Notes under the pieces: model-generated
What the model was told of the DNA's origin: nothing
The model's input: only the letters and a program-made list of their open reading frames with translations
The model's database searches: none
NCBI GenBank assembly: GCA_903909505.1
Contig: CAIVVZ010000485.1
Location: 9,347-41,346, forward strand
From: an uncultured Desulfobacteraceae bacterium
GTDB lineage: Bacteria > Desulfobacterota > Desulfobacteria > Desulfobacterales > Desulfatirhabdiaceae
Direction: 5' to 3'
DNA: 32,000 bases
Program-made: the position numbers and the translations under genes
In this document: piece by piece, positions 10,790 to 29,299 of the stretch
Position numbering within the stretch: position 1 is the first letter of the stretch
Layout of the letters: each line of letters begins with the position of its first letter

Positions 10790-13663
10790 ATGAATCCATT
10801 TTCCTGGCTACGAAGGCGCAAAGATGATAGGCATGACGCCGCCATGGTTACACGGCTATCGCAAGCCATTCACCATGGTGAGTTGGGTGAAATCAGGCGC
10901 CTGCTCAGAGAGGGGGTCCGTCCCGATAGTACCGATGGGTCAGAAAGACTACCGATATGCATCGCGGCGGAGATTGGTAACGCACAGGCTCTGGAACTGC
11001 TCCTGGTAAATATCAGCCCGAATGCACTGGACCATGGGCGTCCCCCCTTGTTCTTCTCTGCAGCACGACTCCATATAGACTGTATCAAGCTTCTCCTCGA
11101 ATCAGGGGCAGACACAAATCTTGGGACTATCCAGCACAAGCATTTGAATCGGGAATTTTCCGAAATAGGCTCAACGCCTTTGCATGCTGCAATGCTAGCA
11201 TATAGCCCTCCATATCGAACTACTATGGACCGCTGGATACCTGAAACCCACTATGTCTCAGATGATATCCTCAGAAGAAAACACCAGTGTATTGAGCTTC
11301 TGCTCAAGGCGGGTTCGAATCCCGCGATTCAGAATGACGAGGGAGTCTCCCCCCTGGAGCTTGCACATGATCACCAGAGAGACTTATTATCAAAACATGC
11401 TGAACAATGCCAAACGGATTGCATCCTTGTCAACCCCCACCGGGGGTGGCCAGTATTCATCGCCAGCCGCCTCAGATCTGCGGGTTTGAAGGCTTTCGGG
11501 ATCTGCTCAGAAACGCCACTTGTTGACTGGAAACATGAATTGCTTGAGCACTGTAGTCCACGAACTTTAATTCTGGCAGAAGGCGATGGGATCGGCGATC
11601 TGTGCAAGCGTCTGACCGGTCAGAGCATGATAGACCTCCGTCACGATCTGAAACCGGGCATCTCAGCCTTCGAACAACTTGAAAACACTTGGAGATTGGT
11701 TTTTCGCTATCTCGATCTCACAGGCGACCAATCAGACTGTCTTTTCGGATTACGAAATCGAGACAAAACGTTCGATATTTTTGTTAGCTATAAAAGCCAA
11801 GATGTAAGAGCTGCCCGCAAGTTGACAGATGCCCTGTTGCAGCTTGGGCTAAGTGTCTGGATGGCTGAATATGAGGTGCTATTGACCGGCCAATTTGCCT
11901 TCCAGTCATCCATAAATGAAGGGTTGGCATTATCGAAACGTGCCGTGATTTTTAGCAATTCACGGTTCTCTGAGTCAGCCTATTGCCAGATGGAGGTCTT
12001 GCTGGCATTGCAGCTCATTCCAAGTTCGAACGTTCTTGAAATCAGGATGCCAGACGAGCGGCATCGTTTCTCGTCGCTGTTTCAGGAAAGGCCAATCCGA
12101 AGGATCGACTGGGACAACACGAGGCCCGATCTATCCGTTAATGCCGTATGTGAGCTTCTCGACCTCCCAGAATTCACCTGCGCTGGCACTGCCAGTGACC
12201 CTGTTGATTCATCTCATATGGAACTGACCTACCGCGACATCTGTGTACACTTGCAGATCGGTAAATGGCAGGCCCAGCCGAGTGAGCTTAATCTTTGGGA
12301 GAACATCTCCACCACCGCTGCAGAATTCACTATTCCATCCACAGACGATTCTCTGACAGGCCGACTGATGATTATGGACGCTGGCTTCGGAATACCAGCA
12401 GCAGAAGATGGCTCCTTAAAATTCCAGATCTCCCTTGACGATGATCGAGAACTCGCCCGGATCACAAGACAGTGTTTCGCTAACCACCACCGCTTCACTG
12501 CGCAGTTCGAATGCAGGGGAGTTCACATCTGGTGTTGGAGAGGACTAATGATGCCTGCGTTCACTTGGTTTCAGTCACCGCTCCTTTTGGAACCGGGTGA
12601 GTTCCGAGATGCGGCAATAGACACTTCATGGGATTTAGTCCGGCAGTACTCGCTATTTGTTGAGCATCCAGTTTCTGGCAGACGACTGGAGTGCCGCTTT
12701 ATTTTTAAGCAGCGAGGTGGGTCGGACGATGCGGATGAACGCTTTCGCAGATTCCTCGAACACTCTGACCAGATGGAGCAGATCGTATCCTCAACAAATT
12801 TGTCTCAACGACAAGAGCTGCCCTCTACAGACTTGGATCGCCCTATACATGTCGTTGAACGAGCAATCCGTAGAGCTATAGCTCTGATGGTTCTTGTTGG
12901 GCGAGCCTCTGATGAAGAGGAATATGCGGCTGCGGACGCTCCTCTCAGAAGTAAACTGACGGAGCGACTTAAGTCCATCGACGCTTGGATAGAGAACGAT
13001 GAGATAGCGCGTTTTCTCTCCCCGAGGGAGAGAAATCATCTATCGGAACCGTTAGGCAGTTGGCCGCCATATGTCCGGTTGGTCATGAAGCGAAAGCAGG
13101 CTCAGGTACCGGTTCTCCTGTGGCATGCGGGGATCGAACAGCGTCCGGCAGTCGCAACACATCTCCTTGCGGATATTTACAAAACAATCCATTTCGGAGT
13201 GATGGACGGATGGCAAATCCTGGTAGACAAAGCCATGGTCGCCACAGCACCTTCGGGAGGTAGTCTGAGCGATTTTGCAGTTGTCTGCATTATGACGATT
13301 GCCCGACTTCGAAACTTCCGCCAAGGAGTGAAGCATAATCCGAGATTTATTGAGGATTTTGAAGAGCATTTGGCGATGCACCAATGGAAGCGGCCGCTTG
13401 ACGCGACCCTGTTTCGGAGGAGCAGCTCCGGCGATCTGTATCTGTCACTGTTCAACCGGCCAATTGAGCAGATGTCGGATTACGAATGCATTATCGTCGA
13501 AGGTTATTCACAAAATCAGCTCATCGCATGTGATAATTTATCGATTCCATCTCCCGGGAGGGATTTCCGATCACAGTATACTGCGGACGACAACCTGAAC
13601 CGAATTCTACCAGCGTTCGCAACTCAGTACGCCGCTGCATGGCCGGAGGAAATGTGGATATAA
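10790..13663 (+). CDS. Ankyrin-repeat / TIR / large uncharacterised C-terminal region protein
   Basis: 957 aa with an AAAGGAG RBS. Ankyrin repeats fall at about 10850-11400 ('GNAQALELLL', 'TPLHAAM', 'IELLLKAGSNPAIQNDEGVSPLELA'). The TIR falls at about 11770-12150 ('FDIFVSYKSQDVRAARKL...SVWMAEYEV...AVIFSNSRFSESAYCQMEVLLAL'). The last ~500 aa have no motifs I recognise. Confidence 0.8.
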   Translation: MNPFSWLRRRKDDRHDAAMVTRLSQAIHHGELGEIRRLLREGVRPDSTDGSERLPICIAAEIGNAQALELLLVNISPNALDHGRPPLFFSAARLHIDCIKLLLESGADTNLGTIQHKHLNREFSEIGSTPLHAAMLAYSPPYRTTMDRWIPETHYVSDDILRRKHQCIELLLKAGSNPAIQNDEGVSPLELAHDHQRDLLSKHAEQCQTDCILVNPHRGWPVFIASRLRSAGLKAFGICSETPLVDWKHELLEHCSPRTLILAEGDGIGDLCKRLTGQSMIDLRHDLKPGISAFEQLENTWRLVFRYLDLTGDQSDCLFGLRNRDKTFDIFVSYKSQDVRAARKLTDALLQLGLSVWMAEYEVLLTGQFAFQSSINEGLALSKRAVIFSNSRFSESAYCQMEVLLALQLIPSSNVLEIRMPDERHRFSSLFQERPIRRIDWDNTRPDLSVNAVCELLDLPEFTCAGTASDPVDSSHMELTYRDICVHLQIGKWQAQPSELNLWENISTTAAEFTIPSTDDSLTGRLMIMDAGFGIPAAEDGSLKFQISLDDDRELARITRQCFANHHRFTAQFECRGVHIWCWRGLMMPAFTWFQSPLLLEPGEFRDAAIDTSWDLVRQYSLFVEHPVSGRRLECRFIFKQRGGSDDADERFRRFLEHSDQMEQIVSSTNLSQRQELPSTDLDRPIHVVERAIRRAIALMVLVGRASDEEEYAAADAPLRSKLTERLKSIDAWIENDEIARFLSPRERNHLSEPLGSWPPYVRLVMKRKQAQVPVLLWHAGIEQRPAVATHLLADIYKTIHFGVMDGWQILVDKAMVATAPSGGSLSDFAVVCIMTIARLRNFRQGVKHNPRFIEDFEEHLAMHQWKRPLDATLFRRSSSGDLYLSLFNRPIEQMSDYECIIVEGYSQNQLIACDNLSIPSPGRDFRSQYTADDNLNRILPAFATQYAAAWPEEMWI

Positions 13664-13888: not shown

Positions 13889-14449
13889 ATGAAGGAAACA
13901 GGCAAAGCGGGCGGCATAACCTTCTGGCATCAGAAAGCGTACGCCACGGCATATCAGTTCGCCGCCGAGGCGCACAAAGGTCAGTTGCTGCCGGGGAGTG
14001 ATCTGCCGTACATCGTGCATGTCACTCTGGTCGCCATGGAAATCATGGCGTCGCTACAGTTCGAGCGGCAGCACGACGGCGAGCTGGCTATCCAGTGCGC
14101 CCTGCTTCACGATGTGATCGAGGATACGGCGGTTACCTATGAGCAGGTTGCCGAGACCTTTGGGAAGCGGGTGGCAGATGGCGTTCTGGCCCTGAGCAAG
14201 AACAAATGCCTTGAGAAAACAGCGCAGATGGAGGACAGCCTGCTCCGCATCCGGCAGCAAATGCCAGAGATCCGGATGGTCAAGCTGGCCGACCGGATCA
14301 TCAATCTGCAACCACCATTTCCATCCCACTGGAACAAAGAGAAGATCTTCCGATATCGGCAGAAGGCCATCACGATCTACAAGGCGCTGAAGGATGCAAG
14401 CCCATATCTTTCCCTGAGGTTAAGGATGATGATTTCAGCGTGTGGGTAA
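13889..14449 (+). CDS. HD-domain small alarmone hydrolase (SpoT/Mesh1-like (p)ppGpp/(p)ppApp hydrolase domain only)
   Basis: 186 aa. 'AAEAHKGQLLPGSDLPYIVHVTLVA' and 'ALLHDVIEDTAVTYEQVAETFGKRVADGVLALSK' match the RelA/SpoT HD hydrolase motifs (H...HD...ED). Confidence 0.8.
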   Translation: MKETGKAGGITFWHQKAYATAYQFAAEAHKGQLLPGSDLPYIVHVTLVAMEIMASLQFERQHDGELAIQCALLHDVIEDTAVTYEQVAETFGKRVADGVLALSKNKCLEKTAQMEDSLLRIRQQMPEIRMVKLADRIINLQPPFPSHWNKEKIFRYRQKAITIYKALKDASPYLSLRLRMMISACG

Positions 14450-14584: not shown

Positions 14585-14618
14585 CAAATATACACTTATG
14601 AAACATGGAGGTTGTAAG

Positions 14619-14867
14619 ATGAAAATCACTGCAAAAGAATTACGGGGCAAGCCCGGACAGATAATCGAGATGGCATCTCGCGGAACTGAAGTCGTGATAA
14701 CGATTCGCGGGAAAAAGCTTGCCAGAATTATCCCTTACGCAAGCAAAAAAGGAAATTACTCAGATAAGGGAAATGAAGATGAGATATTCGGTTTATGGCA
14801 GAACAGGGAAGATATCGAAAATGTCGATGACTATATGAGGAATATGCGGAAAAGGAGGGCATTTTGA
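14619..14867 (+). CDS. Phd/YefM-family antitoxin
   Basis: Start at ATG 14619, with GGAGG 7 nt upstream. 'MKITAKELRGKPGQIIEMASRGTEVVITIRGKKLARIIPY' is the typical Phd/YefM N-terminal fold motif. The stop overlaps the start of the downstream PIN gene (TTGA). Confidence 0.75.
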   Translation: MKITAKELRGKPGQIIEMASRGTEVVITIRGKKLARIIPYASKKGNYSDKGNEDEIFGLWQNREDIENVDDYMRNMRKRRAF

Positions 14868-15241
14868 TTATTGATACGGATGTTCTCGTCTGGCATTTGC
14901 GCGGGAATGAGAAAGCACGGGATACAATTCACAGCAGCTTTCCTTTCGGCATATCCGTAGTCACCTACATAGAGTTGATTCAGGGTATGAAAGACAAGAA
15001 ACAGATGAACAGCTTCATAAAGCAATTAGCCAAATGGAATATCGAAATCGTTCAAATAAGCGATGATATATCCACTCGGGCCATGATCTACGTGGAACAA
15101 TACCATCACAGCAATTCAATGGAACTGGCCGATGCCTTGATTGCCGCTACCTGTACAAACAAGGCTGAAGTATTGCTGACAGCAAACGATAAACATTACA
15201 AGTTTGTACCAAATATCCAGATCAAGAGATTTATTCCATAA
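14864..15241 (+). CDS. vapC: PIN-domain toxin (VapC family)
   Basis: 125 aa, TTG start. The four PIN acidic positions are present: 'IIDTD', 'YIELIQG', 'LADALIAAT', 'TANDKHY'. Confidence 0.8.
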   Translation: MIIDTDVLVWHLRGNEKARDTIHSSFPFGISVVTYIELIQGMKDKKQMNSFIKQLAKWNIEIVQISDDISTRAMIYVEQYHHSNSMELADALIAATCTNKAEVLLTANDKHYKFVPNIQIKRFIP

Positions 15242-15248
15242 CTCAGCG

Positions 15249-15428
15249 GAGCTTGATTTCCTTTACCAACTGGAACGACTCAAGGATCAGTTGCCCGGTT
15301 ACGATGTGGCGATGCGTCTTTTGACCATCGCCAGATTTATCAAAGGCGAAGGCTTCCCTTGGAGTCGGCAGCGGGACCATTTCGGCCTTCGAGTATCGTC
15401 TGGCCATTACACTGGGTGCGCAGGTCGG
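15249..15428 (+). pseudogene. Collapsed remnant of a second RSH-TPR-SLOG-RyR gene copy
   Basis: 15249-15345 aligns to 9346-9442 (83/97 identical by hand count). 15367-15428 aligns to 9976-10037 (57/62). About 533 nt of the parent gene are replaced by 21 nt, and the two blocks are in different frames. Confidence 0.8.
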
Positions 15429-15506
15429 TAGCTCATAACCGATGCTGGAATCCAATCGCTAAACATGATATCTCAACTTTCTTGAATAAGTGGAGAATAG
15501 AACGTT

Positions 15507-16943
15507 ATGAAAGAACATTGGACAAATGATCACTGGTACGATTTCCTTGACGATCTGAGTTCGAACTCCGGCAGGTACGTGCCAGTCGTCGGGTCCGAAT
15601 TGATGGTGTATCAAGAAGCAGGGAAACGCATTAGTGTTCACCAAAAGTTGGCAAAACGACTGGCTGCTAAACTACGAGTCGATACGAAGGAACTGTCGGA
15701 ACCATTTGGGCTGATTGAAGTTATACGCACTTATCAATTGCGCCGCAAAGATTTCGTTTCCGCCAAGCCTTACTCCTCTATCGTGGAAATTCTTAACGAA
15801 GAAAAATGGCCCATTCCCGAACCTGTGCGCAAACTGGCATCCATTCGGCATTTCAATTTCTTTTTGAACGCCAGTTGGTTGCCGTTTCTTAAGCTCGCGC
15901 TGGAGCAGGAACGGCAATTCCCAGTGTTTGAGGCAAGCAATATCGTGGGGAAGCCGATGCAGGACTTTGATGATGAAAGTATTGGTGTCGGTCTCTGCGT
16001 ATTCAACTTGTTTGGCAGTGCATCGGCATCATCTTCGGCCAATTCAAACACATTTTCGGTCACCGATGATGACTTACTTGAGTGTATGCATCGCTTGCTG
16101 TCCAACCCTCCATCGAGAACGAGTGCCCACCTACTCGAAAAGAACCGTGAGTTACTTGTTTGGGGATGCAGTTTTTCCAGTTGGTTGGCCCGTTTTTTTC
16201 TCTATAGCCTTGTCAGGACAGTTCCCCTCCAAGCCGGCCAGGCGCGCCGCATGCGGGTGGTTGCAGACGGGCGCTGCACCGGTGATGATTCCTTGCAAGC
16301 GTTTTGGACCAGTCTCAATGCTCCCATCTACGACGGAGAATCCGCAGTGGATTTCATCGATGAGCTTTTTGAACGGTGGCACAAGGAGTTTCCCGCCGTA
16401 CCGGACCCACTGGCGGACGCGCCCCAGTCAATCCTCCTGGACCATAATCCTTTTTCGACCGGAGAAATCTTTATCAGTTATGCGCGAAAAGACGCAGAAG
16501 CGGCAAAAGAAATTGCGGCATGCCTCAGAAATAATGGATTATCGGTCTGGTTGGACTTGGACTGCCTTCAGAATGGTGACCTCTACCGCGCCAAAATCCG
16601 GTCCAACATTCAATATTGTTCTTGTTTCATCCCCCTGATCTCCTCTGAAGCCATTGGAAATGTCGTGGAACTCGGCTTCATGTACAAAGAGGAATGGCTT
16701 TTTGCCAAGGAGCAGGCCGAGTTGAGGCGTGATGGCGGCATGGCGCTTAGCGAATTCATCCTGCCGGTCTGCATCGATCCGAGTATTGATCTCTACGATC
16801 CTCGACTGCCCGACTTTATCCGGGAGCGGCACATCGAGTCATGGGCGGACGGCCCCCCGTCTTCGTGGACCGGGCGAGTGCGAGAGGCCCGCAAGCAATT
16901 TGCAAGAGCAAAAAAGGGGCAACCAAGAAAGGAACAACAATGA
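15507..16943 (+). CDS. C-terminal TIR-domain protein with a possibly degenerate SIR2-like N-terminal region
   Basis: 478 aa. The TIR falls at about 16460-16850: 'GEIFISYARKDAEAAKEIAACLRNNGLSVWLDLDCL...CFIPLISSEAI...YKEEWLFA'. The N-terminal layout ('YVPVVGSEL', 'VFNLFGSAS', 'LLVWGCSFSSW') resembles SIR2_2 strand/loop spacing but lacks the usual His. The stop overlaps the next gene's start (ATGA). Confidence 0.7.
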   Translation: MKEHWTNDHWYDFLDDLSSNSGRYVPVVGSELMVYQEAGKRISVHQKLAKRLAAKLRVDTKELSEPFGLIEVIRTYQLRRKDFVSAKPYSSIVEILNEEKWPIPEPVRKLASIRHFNFFLNASWLPFLKLALEQERQFPVFEASNIVGKPMQDFDDESIGVGLCVFNLFGSASASSSANSNTFSVTDDDLLECMHRLLSNPPSRTSAHLLEKNRELLVWGCSFSSWLARFFLYSLVRTVPLQAGQARRMRVVADGRCTGDDSLQAFWTSLNAPIYDGESAVDFIDELFERWHKEFPAVPDPLADAPQSILLDHNPFSTGEIFISYARKDAEAAKEIAACLRNNGLSVWLDLDCLQNGDLYRAKIRSNIQYCSCFIPLISSEAIGNVVELGFMYKEEWLFAKEQAELRRDGGMALSEFILPVCIDPSIDLYDPRLPDFIRERHIESWADGPPSSWTGRVREARKQFARAKKGQPRKEQQ

Positions 16944-19900
16944 AGAGCACGGGAGCATGCTCAACCGAACGGCCATGGCCGGGTTTATTTTCTTACACCG
17001 AGGCTGATGCAGGCTTTTTCTTCGGCAGGACGCGGGAACTGACGCAGGTCTCATCCAGCATTCTTGCAAATCGCACGACTGTCATATTCGGCCCTTCCGG
17101 AACCGGGAAAACATCTCTACTGCAAGCCGGGGTGTTTCCTGGTTTGCGAGAGAAAGCCATGTTGCCAATTACCGTGCGCCCTCTCGAGTTCAGCCGCTGC
17201 GCGAACTCCCTCTGTACCTACGTCAAGAGTCATTTGCGCGCTAACTGCCTTGAAGAAGGAATCGAACTCGACGAGGAAAGACTTCCGCCCTTGACCTCCG
17301 AAGCAGATGAGTCGCTTTGGGAATACCTCCAACGTGTTGAGATGTGGGGCGCATCTCTCGAACTGGTTGAACCCGTCCTCGTTTTTGATCAGTTCGAAGA
17401 GTGGATGCGTTTGTTTGCCATCGACGATCCGGCCACGCATGAACTTGCCGATGTGATCGAAAACTACGTCCCGCATGCCATCGAGTCACTTCCCCCGTCC
17501 ACAGCGTGGGGGCAGGTTATCGCATCCCGTAATCATCCCTGGCGCGTTGTCTTGTGTCTACGCGAGGATTGCATCGGCCAACTGGAAGACCTCAGCAGAC
17601 GCATGCCTTCCGTCATGCGCAACCGGATACCCTTGCGGCGGATGACCCGCCAACAAGGGCACGAAGTCATCCTTGGTCCTGGTGCTGACATTATCCACAA
17701 AGAGATGGCAGAACGTCTGCTCGATTTTGCCGTCACCGGCGGCCCGCCAAACAGCGGATCCAATTTGCCGTCGATGCAAGACAACCACCCGGTTGAACCG
17801 GCTATCTTAAGCCTGATCTGCCGGGAATTGAACGAAAGACGCATCACAGAGGGAACCCCACAGATCACAGCTCCCGATATGGAAGAAGCGGGGGGCCAAA
17901 TCCTGCACAACTTCTACAAGCAGTGTTTTTCATCGTTCCGCTCATTAACTGCCCAGTGCTTTGTTGAAGATTACCTCATCGACCCCTCGATCACGCCGGG
18001 CCGAACCTTCGCCACAGATGCTCAAGCGATCAACTCAGGGGTGCGCCCGGACGAAATCGAACACTTGATCGGGCAACGTCTGCTCCGACGGGAAACGCGT
18101 CAGAGCGGCACGCACCTCGAACTGAGCCATGACGTACTCATCCAGCCCGTCAAGGAGAGTCGCGACAGCAGGCTGGAACAGCTTGTCCGTGAGGAGGCGA
18201 AACGGACGGCCCGAGAACTGAAAAAACTAAAACGGCAGCGCCAAGCTATTGCCTACATTTTTGCGATCACCGTCGTTGCGCTGGTCATTTCGGTACTTGC
18301 AGTTTTTGCTGTGATCCAGCGAAAGGAGGCGGACCGACAGCGCCGCTTGGTCGAGCTAAAGCTGGATCTGGTCCTTGGTGCCATAGACAAACTAATTTAT
18401 CAGATTCCCGATCAACTGGGCAAGCTGCCGGGCAGCATCCCCATCATCTCCCGCATTCTGGAAGAGAATCTCGATCTCATGCAGCGCCTTCTGCAGTTCA
18501 ATCCCGATTCGGGTTCGCCACGTGCCCAGCGCAATCTGGCCGCCAATCACCTGAAACTCGGAGACCGCTGGCTGCTTATCGGCGACACGAAACACGCCAT
18601 ATCCGCCTATGGCGAGGCGGAAAAACTGCTTCAGACGCTGGACCAACAGCAACAGAGCGCCCGATCGCAACGAGACATTGCCTATCTCAACGAACGCATG
18701 GGCTCGGCACTGCTACGGCGGGGCGACATCGAAGATGCCCGGCAGCGCTACCAGACAGCGCTCTCGATTGACACGGCGCTGTTCAGTCAGCACCCGGATG
18801 AGGTCGAAAACCTGCGCTCTCTGGCGGTGGATTATCAGCATTTGGGGGACGTGGCAGCGCGCGTGGTGGACCATCCCGGCGCCCTGACATTCTATACCCA
18901 GTTCCTATTGGCAGCCGAACGGCTTGCCGACCGACCCGGCACTCCAATGGATCGACGCTACCTGGCCACATCCCAGGACAAGCTGGCCTTGGTTCATGGG
19001 TGGCTCGGGAATCTGCAAGCGGCGCGTTGGCATGCATCCAACTGTGTCGAGCTGACCCGCAGCCTGGCCAACGACGTTCATGATTTGCCGTTTCGACGAG
19101 ATTTTGTCACGGCGCTGCAGAGACTGGGCAATCTCCAGAAGAAAATGGGTGATCCCGGCCAGGCACTGATGACCTTCCGGGAGATGGAGGCCGTTGCCAG
19201 ACAACTGCCGCTGGATCCAGCCAACCTGGACACCCGATTCAACCACGCTTTGGCAATGCGACAAAGTGCCGACTGTCTGGTAGACCTTAACCGTGTCGAA
19301 GAGGCCCTGGCGGTCTATGATGAAACCGAACGGGTTTTTCGTGGCGCCATTCTTGGTGCGGATCCTGAAGACCATACCGTCTATCTGCAGTTGGCGGAGA
19401 TTTTCGGGGGGCGTGCCTGGGCTCATGCTTTGCGGCAAGAACTGAATCCGGCCATTAAGGATTATCTGCGGTGCATCGATACACTGGAGACAATCCCTGA
19501 GATATCACGTGACAAGGTAGTACAGAACAAACTCATGGCCGCCCACACCCGTGTGGCAAAGTTGCTGGACGATCTCGGAGACGTGCCCGGGCGCAACACC
19601 CATTGGCAAGCAGCCGGACACCTGTTCCGCCAGCAATACGGGGATACTTTCCCGGTTGAGGCATGGACGCCCGTCACGCGGGGCCTGCTCTTTCACATCA
19701 TCGGCGAAAGCAACACCACCATCATCGCCGACCTGCGAGAGGATGAGGCGGATAAACACAAGGCGGTACAGGCATCCCGCACACGCGAATCTCTGCGGGC
19801 CTGGAATATGACCTGTGCAAGCCTGGCCACAGCGCTTGCGGATGCGGGCCAATTGCAGGAAGCGGCGCAGATCTACGCGCAGATGCTGGCCACTGCCTCG

Positions 19901-20869
19901 GATTACCTCAAAAACAACGACGATGCAGTGATCCGCGGCGATCTTGCCTACAGCTATCTGAAACAGGGCGAACTCCTGAAACGCGCGGGAGACCGGAATG
20001 GGGCGCTACAGGCACTGACGAGCGCACACGCGCTGTTTAAAAAAGTCGCGGCGGGACAATCCAGGCAGTTCAACATCGTTTACGGTCTTGCCACCATCCA
20101 GCGCGCCCTGGCGGATGAATGTCTTCACCACGCCGCGTCTGGAGACAATCTGCCAAAACGCCTTGAACTTGCCGAAACCTGTCTGGGATACGCCAGCGAG
20201 CTGATCGGTCTGGACGGCGCTCTGCTAAAAACGGGAAAAGCACCCGGAATCAGCGGCATGACGATCCTCCAGGATGCCGAACGCATCGCCCGTCTGTGCA
20301 GCCTGATCCAAAACCGGGAAGAAGCGGCAAAATCGTGGAAACACGTGGGCGATCTATCGCTAACACTCTGGGGGGACGAATCGACCGTTCCCGCAAGAGC
20401 GCTGCTCTTGCAATATGCCAGTACCGCCGCTGACGGTATGTGTGCCGCGGGCCAGCCTGACCAGGCGGTTTCCCTGATCGAGTCCGTGAGCCAGCGCATC
20501 GAGAAAACCATCTCCGGTCCGGCCGACTTCGCAGGGCACCAGCACCTGGCATCGGCCCTTGGTAACCTTTGCTGGCTGCAGCTTCTTGCCGGAAACGGTC
20601 AGGCTGCCATGACTACCGGGTCCCGCGCCGTTGCCCTGATCCCCAATGAGCGCCCCAACCCCGCACGTTTGAACCTTGCCCATGCCTATCTGCTGAGCGG
20701 TTCATTCGACCATGCGAAGGGCCTCCACGAAAAATATTCCGGCACGGTCTTTGAAGACGGCCGACACTGGAACAGCGAGGTGCGTAACGACTTCAGGCTG
20801 TTGCGCGAGGCGGGATTTGACCACCCGGATTTCAAGAAAATCGAGGCGATGCTGAAGGATATGGATTAA
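16940..20869 (+). CDS. STAND NTPase (nSTAND-like P-loop) / single TM helix / long TPR array
   Basis: I place the start at ATG 16940, an ATGA overlap with the upstream stop. The track's 16841 start would overlap the upstream gene by about 100 nt. Walker A is 'IFGPSGTGKTSLLQAG' (about 17090). Walker B is 'VLVFDQFEEW' (about 17378). The TM helix is 'IAYIFAITVVALVISVLAVFAVI' (18247-18316). About 850 aa of TPR-like repeats follow. Confidence 0.8.
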   Translation: MKSTGACSTERPWPGLFSYTEADAGFFFGRTRELTQVSSSILANRTTVIFGPSGTGKTSLLQAGVFPGLREKAMLPITVRPLEFSRCANSLCTYVKSHLRANCLEEGIELDEERLPPLTSEADESLWEYLQRVEMWGASLELVEPVLVFDQFEEWMRLFAIDDPATHELADVIENYVPHAIESLPPSTAWGQVIASRNHPWRVVLCLREDCIGQLEDLSRRMPSVMRNRIPLRRMTRQQGHEVILGPGADIIHKEMAERLLDFAVTGGPPNSGSNLPSMQDNHPVEPAILSLICRELNERRITEGTPQITAPDMEEAGGQILHNFYKQCFSSFRSLTAQCFVEDYLIDPSITPGRTFATDAQAINSGVRPDEIEHLIGQRLLRRETRQSGTHLELSHDVLIQPVKESRDSRLEQLVREEAKRTARELKKLKRQRQAIAYIFAITVVALVISVLAVFAVIQRKEADRQRRLVELKLDLVLGAIDKLIYQIPDQLGKLPGSIPIISRILEENLDLMQRLLQFNPDSGSPRAQRNLAANHLKLGDRWLLIGDTKHAISAYGEAEKLLQTLDQQQQSARSQRDIAYLNERMGSALLRRGDIEDARQRYQTALSIDTALFSQHPDEVENLRSLAVDYQHLGDVAARVVDHPGALTFYTQFLLAAERLADRPGTPMDRRYLATSQDKLALVHGWLGNLQAARWHASNCVELTRSLANDVHDLPFRRDFVTALQRLGNLQKKMGDPGQALMTFREMEAVARQLPLDPANLDTRFNHALAMRQSADCLVDLNRVEEALAVYDETERVFRGAILGADPEDHTVYLQLAEIFGGRAWAHALRQELNPAIKDYLRCIDTLETIPEISRDKVVQNKLMAAHTRVAKLLDDLGDVPGRNTHWQAAGHLFRQQYGDTFPVEAWTPVTRGLLFHIIGESNTTIIADLREDEADKHKAVQASRTRESLRAWNMTCASLATALADAGQLQEAAQIYAQMLATASDYLKNNDDAVIRGDLAYSYLKQGELLKRAGDRNGALQALTSAHALFKKVAAGQSRQFNIVYGLATIQRALADECLHHAASGDNLPKRLELAETCLGYASELIGLDGALLKTGKAPGISGMTILQDAERIARLCSLIQNREEAAKSWKHVGDLSLTLWGDESTVPARALLLQYASTAADGMCAAGQPDQAVSLIESVSQRIEKTISGPADFAGHQHLASALGNLCWLQLLAGNGQAAMTTGSRAVALIPNERPNPARLNLAHAYLLSGSFDHAKGLHEKYSGTVFEDGRHWNSEVRNDFRLLREAGFDHPDFKKIEAMLKDMD

Positions 20870-20949
20870 TACAATATTTTGCAATTTGAATAACCCCTTA
20901 CAGGTTTAGAACCCAATGTGATAGGCTAAGGCGATCAAAAGGAATCATC

Positions 20950-21426
20950 TTGAAATCGATCAACAACACATCACCAGTCTACCAGCATCCGGCTGCGTTA
21001 CTCCAGCACCTCATTCAGTTCGATACCACCAACCCACCCGGCAACGAGGCTGAATGTATCACCTTCAGTAATGGCCTGCTGAACATCCCGGGCAAATTGG
21101 GCAAACAGGTTAGTTTCTTTGATCCGCTTTTACACAACACAGTAGATGCTACCGTTTTGCACGGCAGCGATAAATGCAACGCGATACCGGGCGAAATCTC
21201 CGTGGAACTGGACGGTCGATTGCTGCCGGGTTATCGCCCGGAAGATATGATCGCGGAACTTCATCAAATTGTCGGCAAAGACATAGCGTTTGATGTGATG
21301 ATGCACGATCCAGGGGCATCTGAGCCAGATATGGGGCTGTTCGATACATTGGCCGGCATTTTGCGCAAGGCCGACCCAGATGCAATACCGGTCCCGCTCC
21401 TATGGAGTAAACCATGCCCCACTTGA
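20950..21426 (+). pseudogene. Internally deleted, 3'-truncated M20-family peptidase (ArgE/DapE-like) remnant
   Basis: The N-terminal 'LLQHLIQFDTTNPPGNEAE' is joined almost directly to the dimerisation/C-terminal part ('NAIPGEISVELDGRLLPGYRPEDMIAELHQIV...'). The ~200-aa metal-binding core is missing, and the ORF ends prematurely after 'PVPLL'. Confidence 0.65.
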
Positions 21427-21662
21427 TTCATCGCCCCAAATGCGATAAACATCTTACGATAGTTGGCAAGTTTCTGATCTGTCCAGAGCATGTGCAGGTG
21501 ATTTTGGTCAGGCCCTTCGTACCAATGTGGATCTTTCTCAGCTATGGCCACGACAGCAACGAAGCCCTTGTCAGGCTGGTCACGACTGAACTGGTGAAAC
21601 GCGGACACGATGTCTGGTTCGACAAGGCCGTTTCTTTACATGAGAACCATTGTTCATTCTGA
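21414..21662 (+). pseudogene. Truncated Zn-ribbon + TIR N-terminal fragment (paralog of the 25239 gene's 5' end)
   Basis: 'KCDKH...ICPEHVQVILVRPFVPMWIFLSYGHDSNEALVRLVTTELVKRGHDVWFD' parallels 'KCPEC...CVDCSHEFTVEKPFVPYRVFISYGHDEHASLALRLRDDLRERGHEAWFD'. A stop follows about 55 aa into the TIR. Confidence 0.65.
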
Positions 21663-21911
21663 AGCCTGGAACCGCCTGAGAATACATTGCCTTTTCACTG
21701 CTATAGTTGAAGGCCGGCAACACTGGTGGAAAAATCATCCTTTAACATCTACAATCAATTTGCCTTACATGAATAGCCGGGGATCCTGTTCGAGAAGTTG
21801 GTGATAACGGAATTGCTTCAGTATATCAGGTTTTATTTGCGTGGTTTGACTGGAAGAAGTATGAAACATTTCGATAAATAATATTTTGCTGCTCACTCAA
21901 AAGGAGGCGTT

Positions 21912-24563
21912 ATGACCGTAAAACAGATTCTGGTCACAGGCGATTTTGTTCACGACAACCATATCTATGAAGGACGGCGTTCCCATTACGGTGACAATAC
22001 GAGTGCAGGCGTAAATCTTAAATCGCAACTCGGCGGGGCGGCCCTGGTGCATGATCTTCTGGATCAGCTCTTGATGGTTAAGAATGAGTCGGAGCGGAAG
22101 TGGAAATCAATCTGTGCGCTGGAGCATACTGCAAACAGCAGCGAGGACTGCCATCTCACCCCGGCAGAGCAGGCATTTGCCTTCTGGCGCCCGTTTCAGA
22201 ATGCAGCGACTGATAAACAATTCTGGCGGGTCAGCGAGGCTATGGGGTTTGGTCCCGCCGAAACAACGCCGATGTGTAAAGTATTGCCCCCAGTGGAAAC
22301 AACCAACAAACCTGAAATTTTGGTTTATTCTGAAGGGGGCATGGGTTTTCGGGAATGCAGGGGGAATTGGTGTGAAGACATGCTATCGGATGCCAAATGG
22401 ATCGTGCTTAAAACCACTTCTCCCGTGGCAACCGGGGCTTTATGGATGCACCTTTCGGAAAAATATCATAATAAACTGATCGTGATCGTTTCTGCCCGAG
22501 AACTCCGCAAATCTCCTGCAAGAATGAATGCCGAGCTGTCGTGGGAAGAAACCATTGAGGGACTTATCCGGGAGGTCGGGCCGGAAGGTACTTTACATGC
22601 GTTATCAAATTGCCGTCACCTGATAGTGGCATTTGAATCGGAGGGTGCTCTCTGGCTCGACATAAAAACTGGTTTTTCTGATGCAAGCGCCTGCCTGATT
22701 TATGAGTCCGGTTCAATTGAAGGTGAACATGCTTACGTGACCAAAGGGACGGCCTTCGGTTATCTCTCCTGTCTTGCTGCTGCCGTTACCTGGGGATTAA
22801 CCTCCGACTCCACCAACTTAGATCTTGCCGCGTCCCTTGAGGGAGGGCTTTCTGCGATGAGGGACCTGAGGGAAAAAGGCCACGGACCTGCCAATGACAA
22901 ACCTGATGGTTTCCCAGCCAAGCGTCTTGCAGACGAAATAAAAAAGACTTCATTGCGTTATTCGCGAGCTTTTTTCCGAACAACAGACCTGGCTGCTAAT
23001 GCTAGCCCCGGCTCGGTTTCCGAATGGAGTTTTCTTCGCCAGGCGCAGCGCAACGATGGGCCGGCCTATGACCTTGCACGGCTTGTTCTTCTCCGTGGCC
23101 CCATTGCTCTTGATAACCTGCCGCATCTGAAAGTAGGCAACCTTTTAACAGCTGACCGCATGGAAATTGAAGCCTTTCGCACCCTTGCCCAGGTCATCCG
23201 AAGATATGTGGAGAAGGATTCCGGCAAGAAGCCCCTCTCCATCGGCGTCTTCGGCCCTCCCGGAGCTGGTAAATCCTTTGCGGTTGAGCAAATTGCCAAA
23301 AACCTTGTAAAAAATGTTGAGTGGCGGGAGTTCAACCTTTCTCAGTTCAATGATCCAGTGGACTTAATTGGAGCCTTCCATCAGATCCGTGACCATGTTT
23401 TGCAAGGTAAACTCCCTGTAGCTTTTTTTGACGAGTTTGATTCACAAAATTTTAAATGGCTTCAGTACCTCCTTGCGCCGATGCAGGACGGAAAGTTTCA
23501 GGAAGGGCAACTTACCCATACCTTGGGAAAATGCCTTTTCGTTTTTGCCGGTGGAACCAGTCCTACGTATGATGCCTTCGGCCCCCCGGAAACTTCGGAC
23601 AAAGATGGCATGGAGACTGAACTTCGACAAAAATTTCGTCTTGCAAAAGGTCCTGATTTTAAAAGCCGCATTGAAGCCTATTTAGATGTATTAGGGCCGA
23701 ACCAGCGTCAAATCCTCCAGACAGTTATACCCGAAGACAAGAGGCTTGTTGAGAAAATTAGTGGTCGCGATTTCATCATCGACCAATCTGACATCGTTTT
23801 TCCGGTACGCAGGGCTTTGATGATACGCGCTCAGTTAAAGTGCGGAACGGATGACAAGCTGGAAATGGACGAGGGGTTGATTCATGCCTTGCTACATGTT
23901 GAAAAATATATCCATGGCAACAGGTCCCTGGAAAAAATTTTGCAACCCTTTGCAGCGGCCCAGACCAGTAGCCTGCACAGCTCCCTCCTCATGCCCTTAA
24001 CCCAGCTCTGCATGTACACTGATGGAAAAGCATTTATCTCGTTCTGCTCAAGTGCACCGAAACTGTTTTCCCCTGAAGCGCCTCTGACCAAGGTGCAAAT
24101 TGAAAAAATCGCTCCGGCAATTCATGAAACTTACTGTGAACTTGAAGATAAAAAAGATGAGAAGAAGCCGAAGACAAATAAGGATTTCGAGAGTCTTAAC
24201 GAGTTTTTCAAGAATTCCAATCTCGCCGCTGCAACACGAATGTTAAAATTAATGGCTATTGTGGGACTAACTTTAGAGAATGGAATTGCAAGCGAAGAAG
24301 AGGAAAATTCCGTCAGACACTATCTGGAATATTATCTCCTGGCACTGGCCGATGCTGAGCATGAAGAGTGGATGGAGTGGCACTTCTCTCAAGGATGGCA
24401 TTACAACAAAGATCGAATTAATGAAAAGAAACTCCACCCCTGCTTACTCCCGTTTTCAAAATTGACCGATCCGGATAAGGAAAAAGACCGGAATGCGATC
24501 CGGCATTTCCCTGATTTTGTCCGCAAGGCGGATATGAAAATCATATTCCAAAAACAGCTCTGA
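21912..24563 (+). CDS. PfkB/ribokinase-like (degenerate) / AAA+ ATPase / RyR-domain protein
   Basis: 883 aa with an AGGAGG RBS. The N-terminal 'ILVTGDFVHDNHIYEG...LGGAALVHDLLDQL' resembles the PfkB sugar/nucleoside-kinase N-terminus, and the GAGD anion-hole position reads 'TKGTAFG'. AAA+ Walker A is 'GVFGPPGAGKSFAVEQIAK' (about 23254) and Walker B is 'VAFFDEFDS'. The RyR repeats fall at about 24100-24540 ('IHETYCEL...', 'AEHEEWMEWHFSQGWHYNKDRINEKKLHPCLLPFSKLTDPDKEKDRNAI'). Confidence 0.75.
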   Translation: MTVKQILVTGDFVHDNHIYEGRRSHYGDNTSAGVNLKSQLGGAALVHDLLDQLLMVKNESERKWKSICALEHTANSSEDCHLTPAEQAFAFWRPFQNAATDKQFWRVSEAMGFGPAETTPMCKVLPPVETTNKPEILVYSEGGMGFRECRGNWCEDMLSDAKWIVLKTTSPVATGALWMHLSEKYHNKLIVIVSARELRKSPARMNAELSWEETIEGLIREVGPEGTLHALSNCRHLIVAFESEGALWLDIKTGFSDASACLIYESGSIEGEHAYVTKGTAFGYLSCLAAAVTWGLTSDSTNLDLAASLEGGLSAMRDLREKGHGPANDKPDGFPAKRLADEIKKTSLRYSRAFFRTTDLAANASPGSVSEWSFLRQAQRNDGPAYDLARLVLLRGPIALDNLPHLKVGNLLTADRMEIEAFRTLAQVIRRYVEKDSGKKPLSIGVFGPPGAGKSFAVEQIAKNLVKNVEWREFNLSQFNDPVDLIGAFHQIRDHVLQGKLPVAFFDEFDSQNFKWLQYLLAPMQDGKFQEGQLTHTLGKCLFVFAGGTSPTYDAFGPPETSDKDGMETELRQKFRLAKGPDFKSRIEAYLDVLGPNQRQILQTVIPEDKRLVEKISGRDFIIDQSDIVFPVRRALMIRAQLKCGTDDKLEMDEGLIHALLHVEKYIHGNRSLEKILQPFAAAQTSSLHSSLLMPLTQLCMYTDGKAFISFCSSAPKLFSPEAPLTKVQIEKIAPAIHETYCELEDKKDEKKPKTNKDFESLNEFFKNSNLAAATRMLKLMAIVGLTLENGIASEEEENSVRHYLEYYLLALADAEHEEWMEWHFSQGWHYNKDRINEKKLHPCLLPFSKLTDPDKEKDRNAIRHFPDFVRKADMKIIFQKQL

Positions 24564-29296: not shown

Positions 29297-29299
29297 AGC

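What the first reader, a model, noticed from the sequence alone, without database searches (positions are those of the whole stretch)
15507..20869. Translationally coupled TIR effector and nSTAND-TM-TPR NTPase pair
The TIR gene's stop and the STAND gene's start overlap (ATGA at 16940-16943), which suggests stoichiometric co-expression. The STAND protein carries no effector domain of its own, so the split TIR protein probably supplies it. A strongly hydrophobic 23-aa helix (18247-18316) separates the P-loop module from about 850 aa of TPR repeats. If it is a true transmembrane segment, the NTPase and the TPR sensor sit on opposite sides of the membrane. That would be unusual for STAND/Avs-like defence sensors, which normally detect cytoplasmic phage proteins. 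The TIR protein's N-terminal ~300 aa has SIR2_2-like spacing but lacks the catalytic His.
Basis: partly seen in the sequence, partly recalled or inferred. Interest (0 to 1): 0.7.

Follow-up and report, generated by a model that had tools for sequence, protein, structure and literature searches.

The report
Membrane-spanning STAND sensor with TIR partner
Two overlapping genes encode a TIR enzyme carrying a dead sirtuin-like domain and a STAND ATPase that probably crosses the inner membrane, so its TPR repeats face the periplasm; the pair recurs in hundreds of bacterial species, has no name and has not been studied experimentally.

Summary
Gene A (15507-16943) encodes a sirtuin (SIR2)-fold domain plus a TIR domain. 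Gene B (16940-20869) encodes nSTAND1 NTPase, one very hydrophobic helix (aa 436-459), then about 850 aa of TPR. The genes overlap by ATGA.

The SIR2 domain is catalytically dead across its whole family: the catalytic His is Phe169 here and the catalytic Asn is lost. The TIR domain keeps its catalytic Glu (E396).

The pairing is not a local accident.
- 531 relatives of gene A were found in species-representative genomes.
- In 65 of 69 loci with enough flank, an nSTAND1 gene lies directly downstream, 47 with the same 4-nt overlap.
- 60 of 61 full-length partners carry the helix at the same position.
- Its flanks obey the positive-inside rule (98 of 103 homologues).
- Homologues place muramidase plus peptidoglycan-binding, phosphoesterase, FGE-sulfatase, subtilase or PDZ domains after it. 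GAF-SpoIIE and ankyrin variants lack it.

Periplasmic sensing by transmembrane bacterial NACHT proteins has already been suggested in print.

Best reading: an unnamed two-gene STAND conflict system with an extracytoplasmic sensor and a cytoplasmic TIR NADase. It is a new variant of a known kind. Topology and function remain untested.

The parts
15507..16943 (+). Gene A: 478-aa protein with a dead SIR2-fold domain and a TIR domain
   Evidence: ORF. An identical 478-aa protein is in the public collection (P0121). The AF2 model has pLDDT 82.7.
15507..16406 (+). N-terminal SIR2-fold domain (aa 1 to about 300), predicted catalytically inactive
   Evidence: Foldseek matches EfAvs5 SIR2 (1.9e-8), ThsA, KomC, DSR2, SIR2-HerA and SPARSA. 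The Pfam SIR2_2 match is below threshold.
16011..16013 (+). Phe169 codon at the position of the SIR2 catalytic histidine
   Evidence: Profile alignment: the His-Gly of ThsA 'KLHG' and of KomC 'KFHG' aligns with 'llG' in the family consensus and 'NLFG' in the window. The KomC entry whose chain has Ala at that position aligns the same way. One KomBC entry in the Foldseek list is titled as the H146N mutant. The column is Leu or Phe in all 31 family members.
16467..16808 (+). TIR domain (aa 321-434)
   Evidence: Pfam TIR_2, E 3.2e-15. PDB profile hits to PdTIR, TIR-1/SARM1, SPARTA TIR, BtTir and AbTir.
16692..16694 (+). Glu396 codon, the putative TIR catalytic glutamate
   Evidence: Invariant E396-W397 in 31 family members. 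It aligns with the Glu of 'WVHKE' in C. elegans TIR-1. That this Glu is the catalytic residue of SARM1 and TIR-1 is from general knowledge.
16930..16943 (+). Coupling junction: AGGA (16930-16933), a 6-nt spacer, then ATGA (16940-16943) where B's start overlaps A's stop
   Evidence: Sequence. The same NTGA overlap occurs in 47 of 65 related loci and in L085, L086, L088, L090-L093 and L095.
16940..20869 (+). Gene B: 1309-aa nSTAND1 NTPase, membrane helix and TPR protein
   Evidence: ORF. The exact 1309-aa product is in the public collection (P0154). Pfam result.
16973..18148 (+). nSTAND1 NTPase module (aa 12-403), with Walker A GPSGTGKT at 17090-17113 and Walker B VLVFDQFEE at 17375-17401
   Evidence: PF20703 at 103.5 bits. 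Motifs located. G54, G56, K57, D150, Q151, E153 and E154 are invariant in 46 homologues. AF2 pLDDT is 88.2, with Foldseek matches to Cdc6/Orc1, archaeal ATPases and NLRPs.
18245..18316 (+). Predicted single transmembrane helix (aa 436-459), N-terminus inside and C-terminus outside
   Evidence: Kyte-Doolittle mean 3.03. Conserved position. Positive-inside bias. Lies within one long helix, aa 398-488, in the AF2 model. It is also the breakpoint of a sensor swap relative to L085.
18317..20536 (+). TPR array (aa 460 to about 1199), predicted periplasmic sensor
   Evidence: Pfam TPR_12, TPR_14, TPR_1, TPR_19 and TPR_7 hits between aa 580 and 1012. The location is inferred from the helix and from homologues.
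20537..20866 (+). C-terminal cap module of about 105 aa (aa ~1200-1308)
   Evidence: 782 representative proteins match at E<=1e-3, nearly always at their extreme C-terminus. It is shared with the partners in L085, L088 and the gene upstream in L086.

Best explanation
This is a two-gene, translationally coupled STAND conflict (probably anti-phage or abortive-infection) system.

**Gene B** encodes a single-pass inner-membrane receptor.
- Its nSTAND1 NTPase switch is cytoplasmic.
- One transmembrane helix follows, oriented N-in and C-out.
- Its TPR array lies in the periplasm.

**Gene A** encodes the cytoplasmic effector, a TIR domain with its catalytic Glu intact. It is joined to a sirtuin-fold domain that has lost the catalytic His and Asn.

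**Proposed sequence of events (all inferred).**
1. An extracytoplasmic cue binds or clusters the TPR arrays. Candidates are a phage component at the envelope stage or envelope damage.
2. This drives NTP-dependent oligomerisation of the NTPase modules on the inner face of the membrane.
3. The oligomer recruits and concentrates the gene A protein. The dead SIR2 domain probably serves as docking or filament scaffold, since active defence SIR2 domains assemble into helices.
4. TIR domains are brought head to tail and switch on NAD+ cleavage. That means NAD+ depletion, possibly also a nucleotide signal.
5. The cell is arrested or killed.

**Shown here:** gene structure, domain identities, loss and retention of catalytic residues, conserved pairing and overlap, conserved helix with positive-inside bias, and modular swapping of the C-terminal part.

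**Inferred:** topology, direction of signalling, physical contact between the two proteins, NADase activity and a defence role.
For: **Pairing.**
- 531 relatives of gene A were found in GTDB species representatives.
- In 65 of 69 loci with room, an nSTAND1 gene is directly downstream on the same strand; 47 have a 4-nt overlap.
- The reverse search agrees: the three top nSTAND1 homologues looked up (P0001, P0004, P0007) each have a TIR gene of 436-467 aa directly upstream with a 4-nt overlap. The products of two also carry a SIR2_2 hit.
- The most distant family member (23% identity, gut metagenome) is paired too.
- So is a cultured strain, Paraburkholderia caribensis MBA4.
- Fused TIR-nSTAND1-TM proteins exist.

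**Effector.**
- The SIR2 fold is supported by Foldseek.
- His is replaced by Phe or Leu, and Asn by Thr or Ser, family-wide.
- The TIR Glu is invariant and aligns with the Glu of 'WVHKE' in TIR-1.

**Membrane helix.**
- Kyte-Doolittle mean 3.03.
- Present in 105 of 120 homologues and 60 of 61 partners at a fixed distance from the P-loop.
- Sequence is not conserved, only hydrophobicity.
- K+R in the flanks averages 6.3 (N) against 3.2 (C), with N>C in 98 of 103 and 64 of 66.
- Part of one continuous helix, aa 398-488, after the last strands of the NTPase module in the AF2 model.

**Outside location.**
- Homologues carry, after the helix, muramidase plus PG_binding_1, phosphoesterase PF04185, FGE-sulfatase, Peptidase_S8, PDZ or Sel1.
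- The GAF-SpoIIE homologue has no such helix.
- In the closest relatives, ankyrin-repeat partners lack the helix while the others keep it.

**Context.** The window is packed with conflict-type genes: kinase-trypsin, several TIR proteins, RelA/SpoT-SLOG-RyR, TIR-NACHT-WD40, PDC-S01 and a PIN/Phd pair.
Against: - No topology predictor or experiment was available. The outside location rests on hydrophobicity, charge bias and analogy with homologues.
- In this particular protein the C-side flank is unusually basic: 6 K/R in 15 residues and net +3, against 8 K/R and net +7 on the N side. The bias is therefore weaker here than the family average.
- The C-terminal cap module of about 105 aa also occurs in the helix-less partner of L085 and in many proteins with no predicted membrane segment. 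At least that module is not compartment-specific.
- TPR and WD40 partners exist both with and without the helix.
- No PADLOC or NCBIfam model recognises the pair, and there are no phage-resistance data.
- Many loci of the main clade sit among housekeeping genes rather than in defence islands.
- Homologues with enzymes after the helix (muramidase, phosphoesterase, subtilase) suggest the outer part can be an output rather than a sensor.
Confidence: 0.5

Rival explanations
1. Inside-out signalling. The NTPase, possibly with the SIR2-TIR protein, senses a cytoplasmic cue. The part beyond the membrane helix is an output or anchoring module at the envelope rather than the sensor. In this locus the TPR array would tether the complex to envelope components.
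For: Some homologues have enzymes after the helix that look like effectors: N-acetylmuramidase plus PG_binding_1 (P0098), phosphoesterase PF04185 (P0026) and Peptidase_S8 (P0116). The dead SIR2 pocket could still bind a nucleotide ligand in the cytoplasm; the SIR2 fold is shown.
Against: In this locus and most partners the outer part is a non-enzymatic repeat array (TPR, WD40) or an unknown domain. In STAND proteins that class of domain is the sensor. The outer part is also the swapped, fast-diversifying module: the NTPase is 87% identical to L085 up to aa 435, then unrelated. That pattern is typical of receptors.
Confidence: 0.2
2. The hydrophobic helix is only a membrane tether or an oligomerisation helix. 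The TPR array stays in the cytoplasm and senses cytoplasmic phage proteins, as in characterised Avs proteins.
For: The C-terminal cap module and TPR/WD40 arrays also occur in helix-less relatives. The C-side flank of this protein is quite basic. Translocating 850 aa after an internal signal-anchor is demanding.
Against: A single uninterrupted stretch of 22-24 hydrophobic residues with no central Pro, Gly or charge must span the bilayer, not dip into it. The positive-inside bias is strong and consistent. Muramidase and peptidoglycan-binding domains after the helix can only work outside. Ankyrin and GAF-SpoIIE variants lack the helix.
Confidence: 0.12
3. Thoeris-like signalling. The TIR domain mainly makes a nucleotide signal (a cADPR-type isomer) that activates SLOG-domain proteins encoded nearby, rather than killing by NAD+ depletion itself.
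For: Genes carrying a SLOG-type (LSDAT_prok) hit lie close by in three loci. The window has RelA/SpoT-SLOG-RyR at 7783-10635, where the hit is below Pfam's cut-off. L001 has the same architecture, with the hit marked weak. L091 has SLOG-DUF4231-SLATT_1 directly upstream. In the main clade a TPR-S protein with a weak cyclase-like match is adjacent in about 28 of 63 loci.
Against: No SLOG gene is consistently linked. The upstream and downstream neighbours of the 80 loci are otherwise not conserved. The window holds several other TIR genes that could pair with the SLOG protein.
Confidence: 0.15
4. Not antiviral. The pair is a cell-cell or self/non-self recognition or programmed-death module, of the kind proposed for multicellular or aggregating bacteria, that responds to neighbour-derived periplasmic cues.
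For: The island composition matches the conflict systems described for multicellular prokaryotes (Kaur et al. 2020 and 2021). An extracytoplasmic sensor suits signals coming from outside the cell.
Against: The main clade occurs in many ordinary soil and water Burkholderiales, Lysobacterales and Opitutaceae. No direct evidence points either way.
Confidence: 0.1

Closest known systems
nSTAND1 conflict systems (Kaur, Burroughs, Iyer and Aravind, eLife 2021, PMC8195603)
   Same: The NTPase is a clear PF20703 member. That paper defines nSTAND1 as a new STAND clade. It appears there as one of the alternative central NTPases in systems whose effector domains include TIR, caspase and trypsin.
   Different: The paper text I searched does not describe the helix after the NTPase as a family trait. 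It also does not describe the conserved operon with a dead-SIR2-TIR protein. Here the effector is a separate, overlapping gene, and no effector-associated adaptor domain was detected on the NTPase.
Avs5 / AVAST type 5 (SIR2-STAND; EfAvs5, PDB 9jap; PaAvs5)
   Same: The best structural match of the N-terminal domain of gene A is the Avs5 SIR2 domain. Both combine a SIR2-fold domain, a STAND NTPase and C-terminal repeats, with NAD+ as the expected target.
   Different: In Avs5 the SIR2 domain is active and fused to a soluble STAND protein that senses a cytoplasmic phage protein. Here SIR2 is dead and sits on a separate protein, a TIR domain supplies the chemistry, and the STAND protein has a membrane helix. 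No Avs model in PADLOC hits either protein.
Thoeris (ThsA SIR2-SLOG plus ThsB TIR)
   Same: It uses the same two folds, SIR2 and TIR, around NAD+. ThsA is among the top structural matches.
   Different: In Thoeris the two folds are on separate proteins, SIR2 is the active killer and a SLOG domain receives the TIR signal. Here both folds are on one protein, SIR2 lacks His and Asn, the pair has no SLOG domain, and a STAND NTPase is the partner.
Bacterial NACHT proteins with transmembrane C-terminal regions (Kibby et al., bioRxiv 2022.07.19.500537)
   Same: The authors note a class of bacterial STAND proteins with membrane segments. [quoted passage not shown]
   Different: Those are NACHT-clade proteins, typically with multiple membrane segments. 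Here a different STAND clade has exactly one helix placed between the NTPase and a large repeat array. That gives a receptor-kinase-like single-pass layout.
Single-pass receptor kinases such as PknB, and animal Toll-like receptors (architectural analogues only)
   Same: A cytoplasmic signalling module, one membrane helix and an external ligand-binding repeat domain. Relatives found here have TIR-TM-TPR or TIR-TM-WD40 layouts.
   Different: There is no homology of the sensing parts. Domain order is reversed relative to Toll-like receptors. The kinase comparison is from general knowledge and was not tested here.

Membership tests
nSTAND1 STAND NTPase (PF20703) | Match to the family model above the curated cut-off | tested here: met
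   103.5 bits against a cut-off of 27.1, aa 12-403.
nSTAND1 STAND NTPase (PF20703) | Intact Walker A and Walker B motifs | tested here: met
   GPSGTGKT at aa 51-58 and VLVFDQFEE at aa 146-154. The key residues are invariant in 46 homologues.
nSTAND1 STAND NTPase (PF20703) | AAA+/STAND-type fold, followed by repeats | tested here: met
   AF2 pLDDT 88.2. Foldseek matches Cdc6/Orc1, archaeal PF01637-type ATPases and NLRP2/3/7/9/14. TPR repeats follow. The sub-domain layout (nucleotide-binding, helical, winged-helix) is inferred from these matches, not shown separately.
nSTAND1 STAND NTPase (PF20703) | Nucleotide-dependent oligomerisation switch | not testable with these tools
   Needs biochemistry or cryo-EM.
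TIR NADase | TIR domain model above cut-off | tested here: met
   TIR_2 at 57.1 bits against 28. PDB profile hits to bacterial and animal TIR NADases.
TIR NADase | Catalytic glutamate present | tested here: met
   E396 is invariant in 31 members. It aligns with the Glu of 'WVHKE' in C. elegans TIR-1. That this is the catalytic residue is from general knowledge.
TIR NADase | NAD+ cleavage activity | not testable with these tools
   Needs an enzyme assay.
Defence-type SIR2 (SIR2_2, PF13289) | Match to the family model above the cut-off | tested here: not met
   16.4 bits against a cut-off of 24.5 for the window protein. More typical family members do carry a precomputed PF13289 hit.
Defence-type SIR2 (SIR2_2, PF13289) | SIR2 fold | tested here: met
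   Foldseek probability 1.00 to EfAvs5, ThsA, KomC, DSR2, SIR2-HerA and SPARSA.
Defence-type SIR2 (SIR2_2, PF13289) | Catalytic His (ThsA 'KLHG', KomC 'KFHG') and the Asn of 'TTNYD' | tested here: not met
   His is replaced by Phe169 (Leu or Phe family-wide). Asn is replaced by Thr in the family consensus and by Ser in the window's 'NASWL'. The domain is therefore a SIR2-fold pseudoenzyme, not a working sirtuin.
Avs (antiviral STAND) systems | Recognised by existing Avs or defence-system models | tested here: not met
   PADLOC gives only generic TIR hits for A and a weak P-loop hit (mad8, E 1.7e-4) for B. NCBIfam gives nothing specific.
Avs (antiviral STAND) systems | Protection against phage | not testable with these tools
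   No experimental data. No related sequence in the phage collection.
Thoeris | Active SIR2 (or other effector) fused to a SLOG signal receiver, with a separate TIR protein | tested here: not met
   No SLOG domain in either protein. SIR2 is dead. SIR2 and TIR are on one chain.
Single-pass (N-in, C-out) inner-membrane protein | One hydrophobic segment of at least 19 residues, conserved in position | tested here: met
   Kyte-Doolittle mean 3.03 at aa 436-459. Present in 105 of 120 homologues and 60 of 61 partners.
Single-pass (N-in, C-out) inner-membrane protein | Positive-inside charge bias | tested here: met
   Family mean K+R is 6.3 on the N side and 3.2 on the C side, with N>C in 98 of 103 and 64 of 66. 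In the window protein it is 8 against 6, net +7 against +3.
Single-pass (N-in, C-out) inner-membrane protein | Extracytoplasmic-type domains on the C-terminal side in relatives | tested here: met
   Muramidase plus PG_binding_1, phosphoesterase, FGE-sulfatase, Peptidase_S8, PDZ and Sel1 occur after the helix. The GAF-SpoIIE homologue has no helix.
Single-pass (N-in, C-out) inner-membrane protein | Experimentally determined topology, or a dedicated predictor such as DeepTMHMM | not testable with these tools
   No topology predictor is available here. Reporter fusions are needed.

The most novel reading that the evidence does not exclude
This is a bacterial counterpart of a transmembrane pattern-recognition receptor. 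A STAND (NLR-like) NTPase has its ligand-binding repeats in the periplasm. There they would detect phage or foreign material before or during genome entry, or signals from neighbouring cells. The event is relayed across the inner membrane to a cytoplasmic TIR NADase, which assembles on a dead-sirtuin scaffold. That would be the first extracytoplasmic sensing mode for bacterial STAND immunity. With the related TIR-TM-TPR and TIR-TM-WD40 proteins, it would form a broad class of Toll-like single-pass immune receptors in bacteria.
Probability: 0.3. Interest if true: 0.85.

Novelty: new variant of a known kind. Interest (0 to 1): 0.55.

Why it matters
The characterised bacterial STAND sensors I compared here (Avs proteins, bacterial NACHT proteins) are described as working inside the cell. 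This pair is widespread: 531 relatives in species-representative genomes, from Burkholderiales to Opitutaceae, Acidobacteria and gut metagenomes. Its conserved layout puts the variable 'sensor' part outside the inner membrane.

If that is right, bacteria have an NLR-like system that watches the periplasm. This makes an open question testable: can bacterial innate immunity detect phages at the envelope stage?

The pair also offers a natural case of a sirtuin fold turned into a non-catalytic scaffold for a TIR enzyme. A version exists in a cultured strain, Paraburkholderia caribensis MBA4, so experiments are feasible.

Tried and rejected
- **Locus search with the full alignment.** The search for related loci with the 31-sequence alignment failed because no stretch was conserved enough. 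An 11-sequence alignment worked.
- **Source contig.** The window's own contig could not be retrieved; P0121 and P0154 are not on record. The source organism therefore stays unknown (window GC 51%).
- **Named systems.** PADLOC and NCBIfam have no model specific to either protein. Full-text searches for a SIR2-TIR fusion or a described dead-SIR2-TIR plus STAND operon found nothing relevant.
- **C-terminal cap as a topology marker.** I hoped the cap of about 105 aa would mark a compartment. It occurs after membrane helices, after N-terminal hydrophobic segments and in proteins with none, so it does not discriminate.
- **A conserved third gene.** A TPR-S protein is adjacent in about 28 of 63 main-clade loci but is absent from the window. 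The core is therefore two genes.
- **Regulatory signals.** Promoter and terminator scans across 15100-21950 gave fewer sites than shuffled controls and nothing at the gene borders.
- **Other features.** There are no tRNA genes and no Rfam matches in the window, and no relatives in the phage collection.
- **Apparent fusions rejected.** Long 'fused' ORFs in high-GC loci came from my ORF caller taking the earliest start codon. Junctions were re-derived from the P-loop position.
- **Longer start rejected.** The start at 16841 for gene B was rejected in favour of 16940.

Full report
**1. What is in the sequence**

Two same-strand ORFs occupy 15507-20869. Gene A (15507-16943, 478 aa) ends in TGA at 16941-16943. 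Gene B starts at the ATG at 16940, so the two share ATGA. AGGA lies at 16930-16933, 6 nt upstream of that ATG.

A longer reading of B from 16841 is possible. The 1309-aa product from 16940 is the one held in the public collection; the 1342-aa version is not. The 16940 start also puts the P-loop at residue 51, as in homologues.

Pfam results:
- Gene A: TIR_2 at aa 321-434 (E 3e-15), and a sub-threshold SIR2_2 match.
- Gene B: nSTAND1 at aa 12-403 (103.5 bits against a cut-off of 27.1), followed by many TPR hits.

The hydrophobic stretch AIAYIFAITVVALVISVLAVFAVI (aa 436-459; 18245-18316) has a 19-residue Kyte-Doolittle mean of 3.03. It is the only such segment in either protein.

**2. The effector protein (gene A)**

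An AF2 model built on 31 family members is confident (pLDDT 82.7). Foldseek against the PDB gives these matches:
- The N-terminal ~300 aa match defence-type sirtuin folds: EfAvs5 SIR2-STAND, ThsA, KomC, DSR2, SIR2-HerA and SPARSA.
- The C-terminal part matches TIR NADases: SPARTA TIR, BtTir, AbTir and SARM1.

A profile of the N-terminal domain aligns with ThsA and KomC.
- The His-Gly of ThsA 'KLHG' and KomC 'KFHG' aligns with 'NLFG' in the window (Phe169). That column is Leu or Phe throughout the family.
- The Asn of 'TTNYD' aligns with Thr in the family consensus and with Ser in the window.

The sirtuin domain is therefore a pseudoenzyme family-wide. In contrast, E396-W397 in the TIR domain is invariant. 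It aligns with the Glu of 'WVHKE' in C. elegans TIR-1, which I take from general knowledge to be the catalytic residue of SARM1 and TIR-1. The TIR domain is thus probably active.

**3. The NTPase (gene B)**

Walker A (GPSGTGKT, aa 51-58) and Walker B (VLVFDQFEE, aa 146-154) are intact, and their key residues are invariant in 46 homologues. An AF2 model of aa 1-520 is confident (pLDDT 88.2). It matches Cdc6/Orc1, archaeal PF01637-type ATPases and NLRP proteins, as expected for a STAND module.

In that model residues 398-488 form one continuous helix that contains the hydrophobic stretch. It comes after the last strands of the NTPase module, not among that module's short helices and strands. The tool reports no contacts, so burial cannot be ruled out directly.

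**4. Is the helix a real membrane span, and which way round?**

- *Position.* Of the 120 best nSTAND1 homologues (30-41% identity), 105 have one hydrophobic 19-mer about 385-395 residues after the P-loop. Three more score just under my threshold. Most of the rest are truncated.
- *Conservation.* Sequence in the segment is not conserved; only its hydrophobic character is.
- *Charge bias.* K+R counts in the 15-residue flanks average 6.3 on the N side and 3.2 on the C side. N exceeds C in 98 of 103 homologues and in 64 of 66 operon partners. This is the positive-inside signature of an N-in, C-out span.
- *Domains after the helix.* Homologues carry N-acetylmuramidase plus PG_binding_1, phosphoesterase PF04185, FGE-sulfatase, Peptidase_S8, PDZ and Sel1 there. 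A homologue with GAF plus SpoIIE has no helix.
- *Closest relatives.* The partners of P0122 (86% identical gene A) and P0127 (56%) carry ankyrin repeats and no helix. The partners of P0123 (75%) and P0125 (58%) keep it.
- *Sensor swap.* The window NTPase is 87% identical to the L085 partner up to residue 435, then unrelated until the last ~104 residues. The breakpoint falls exactly at the start of the helix.

*Caveats.*
- This protein's C-side flank is more basic than the family average.
- The C-terminal cap module of about 105 aa also occurs in helix-less proteins.
- No topology predictor or experiment was available.

**5. Do the two genes belong together?**

A scan of one genome per species found 531 relatives of gene A, and the best 80 loci were fetched. 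I built an nSTAND1 model from the homologues and searched those loci.

| Measure | Count |
|---|---|
| Loci with at least 1.5 kb downstream | 69 |
| nSTAND1 gene directly downstream, same strand | 65 of 69 |
| Start overlaps the stop by 4 nt (ATGA, GTGA or TTGA) | 47 of 65 |
| Full-length partners carrying the helix | 60 of 61 |

Further support:
- The three top nSTAND1 homologues looked up each have a TIR gene of 436-467 aa directly upstream with a 4-nt overlap. Two of those products also carry a SIR2_2 hit.
- The most distant member of the gene A family (23% identity, gut metagenomes) is paired in the same way. It is followed by a second pair made of an unknown gene and an nSTAND1 gene.
- The cultured strain Paraburkholderia caribensis MBA4 carries the pair with an ATGA junction.
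- Fused TIR-nSTAND1-TM proteins exist (P0092; the gene upstream in L086).

The C-terminal part of the partner varies:
- TPR in the window and in P0001;
- WD40 in P0007, L082 and L044;
- ankyrin in L001 and L085;
- an unassigned ~600-aa region in the main clade.

**6. Most likely mechanism**

Gene B encodes a single-pass inner-membrane receptor with a cytoplasmic NTPase switch and an external TPR array. Gene A encodes its cytoplasmic effector. I propose these steps:
1. Ligand-driven clustering outside the membrane promotes oligomerisation of the NTPase inside.
2. The oligomer recruits the gene A protein.
3. The dead SIR2 domain acts as scaffold. Its structural relatives (Avs5, ThsA, KomC) are solved as helical assemblies, according to the entry titles.
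4. The clustered TIR domains cleave NAD+.

All of these steps are inference. What is shown is the anatomy, the state of the catalytic residues, the conserved coupling, and the conserved helix with its charge bias.

Rivals considered:
- Inside-out control of an envelope-side output, suggested by homologues with enzymes after the helix.
- A mere membrane tether with cytoplasmic repeats.
- A Thoeris-like signalling role for the TIR domain towards SLOG proteins encoded nearby.
- A role other than antiviral defence.

**7. Comparison with what is known**

- nSTAND1 was defined by Kaur et al. 2021 as a STAND clade in conflict systems whose effectors include TIR, caspase and trypsin. The text I searched does not describe the helix or this operon.
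[quoted passage not shown] The idea is therefore not new in principle.
- A DGR study annotated TM, NACHT and nSTAND1 domains in its target proteins. It predicted periplasmic sensor domains for one NACHT target and for a non-STAND target.
- Avs5 is the closest characterised system by fold. There SIR2 is active, fused and cytoplasmic.
- The pair is not Thoeris: there is no SLOG domain, and SIR2 is dead.
- No PADLOC or NCBIfam model captures it.

I therefore file it as a new variant of a known kind: a split, membrane-spanning STAND system with a TIR effector on a pseudo-sirtuin scaffold.

**8. Verdict**

The correction is that the helix is the norm in this nSTAND1 group. Interest is moderate to good (0.55). 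The system is large, coherent, unnamed and experimentally untouched, with a testable and unusual sensing geometry. Specialists have already anticipated periplasmic sensing by STAND proteins, and nothing here demonstrates function.

Noticed in passing
window 1550-4750: The kinase-trypsin protein (Pkinase match below Pfam's cut-off at aa 38-285; Trypsin_2 at aa 435-637) has one hydrophobic segment at aa 317-340 between the two domains. That gives a PknB-like single-pass layout with the peptidase presumably outside. PADLOC gives partial matches to PD-T4-6 and RT-Protease models.
   Followed up: partly
window 1-32000: Nearly every large ORF is on the + strand and is a conflict-type gene. They are a TIR protein (6566-7759), RelA/SpoT-SLOG-RyR (7783-10635), ankyrin-TIR (10790-13663), an HD_4 protein (13889-14449), a Phd/PIN pair (14598-15241), AAA(MoxR-like)-RyR (21912-24563), a NACHT-WD40 protein with weak N-terminal TIR-model hits (25239-28928) and a PDC-S01 AAA_14/DUF4143 protein (29261-30679, E 1.5e-143).
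   Followed up: partly
window 7783-10635; L001 1-2515; L091 710-2470: Genes with a SLOG-type (LSDAT_prok) hit lie near the pair in three loci. The window and L001 have RelA/SpoT-SLOG-RyR, where the SLOG hit is weak or below the cut-off. L091 has SLOG-DUF4231-SLATT_1 directly upstream. They could be receivers of a TIR-made signal.
   Followed up: no
L004 10687-12561; L005 3379-5250 (- strand) and about 26 other loci: In the main proteobacterial and verrucomicrobial clade, a protein of about 620 aa lies next to the pair in about 28 of 63 loci. It has a TPR-S domain (PF20308) and a weak C-terminal cyclase-like match. It is downstream on the same strand in 8 loci and upstream and divergent in about 20. 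It is absent from the window. It may be a third component of that clade.
   Followed up: partly
window 20537-20866 (gene B aa ~1200-1308): This is a C-terminal module of about 105 aa. It matches 782 representative proteins (E<=1e-3), nearly always at their extreme C-terminus. It follows TIR-TM-TPR and TIR-TM-WD40 layouts (P0155, P0163, P0176, P0177), TM-WD40 proteins with no Pfam hit shown for the N-terminal part (P0161, P0167), and nSTAND1-TM proteins. It also occurs in proteins with no membrane segment. Its role is unknown.
   Followed up: partly
P0155, P0163, P0176, P0177 (relatives found through the cap module): Several proteins have an N-terminal TIR domain, one hydrophobic helix at about aa 190-230, then long TPR or beta-propeller arrays, with no NTPase. 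The layout is Toll-like-receptor-like, with the domain order reversed.
   Followed up: no
window 20950-21426 and 21414-21662: Downstream of gene B are short ORFs with partial matches: M20 peptidase dimerisation domain (158 aa) and the first ~30 residues of a TIR domain (82 aa, E 0.0024). They look like gene remnants.
   Followed up: no
L085 621-3842, L088 3743-5254, L086 1830-5024: In the closest relatives, another TIR gene sits immediately or a few kb upstream of the pair: TIR-TPR proteins of 1073 and 503 aa, and a TIR-nSTAND1-TM-TPR protein of 1064 aa. The window has an ankyrin-TIR protein and a Phd/PIN pair in the corresponding region. This suggests arrays of related TIR systems.
   Followed up: no
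L093 8880-11422: In the gut-metagenome locus, a second pair directly follows the first: an unknown 483-aa protein and an nSTAND1 protein of 1156 aa. nSTAND1 genes may take different upstream effector genes in tandem.
   Followed up: no
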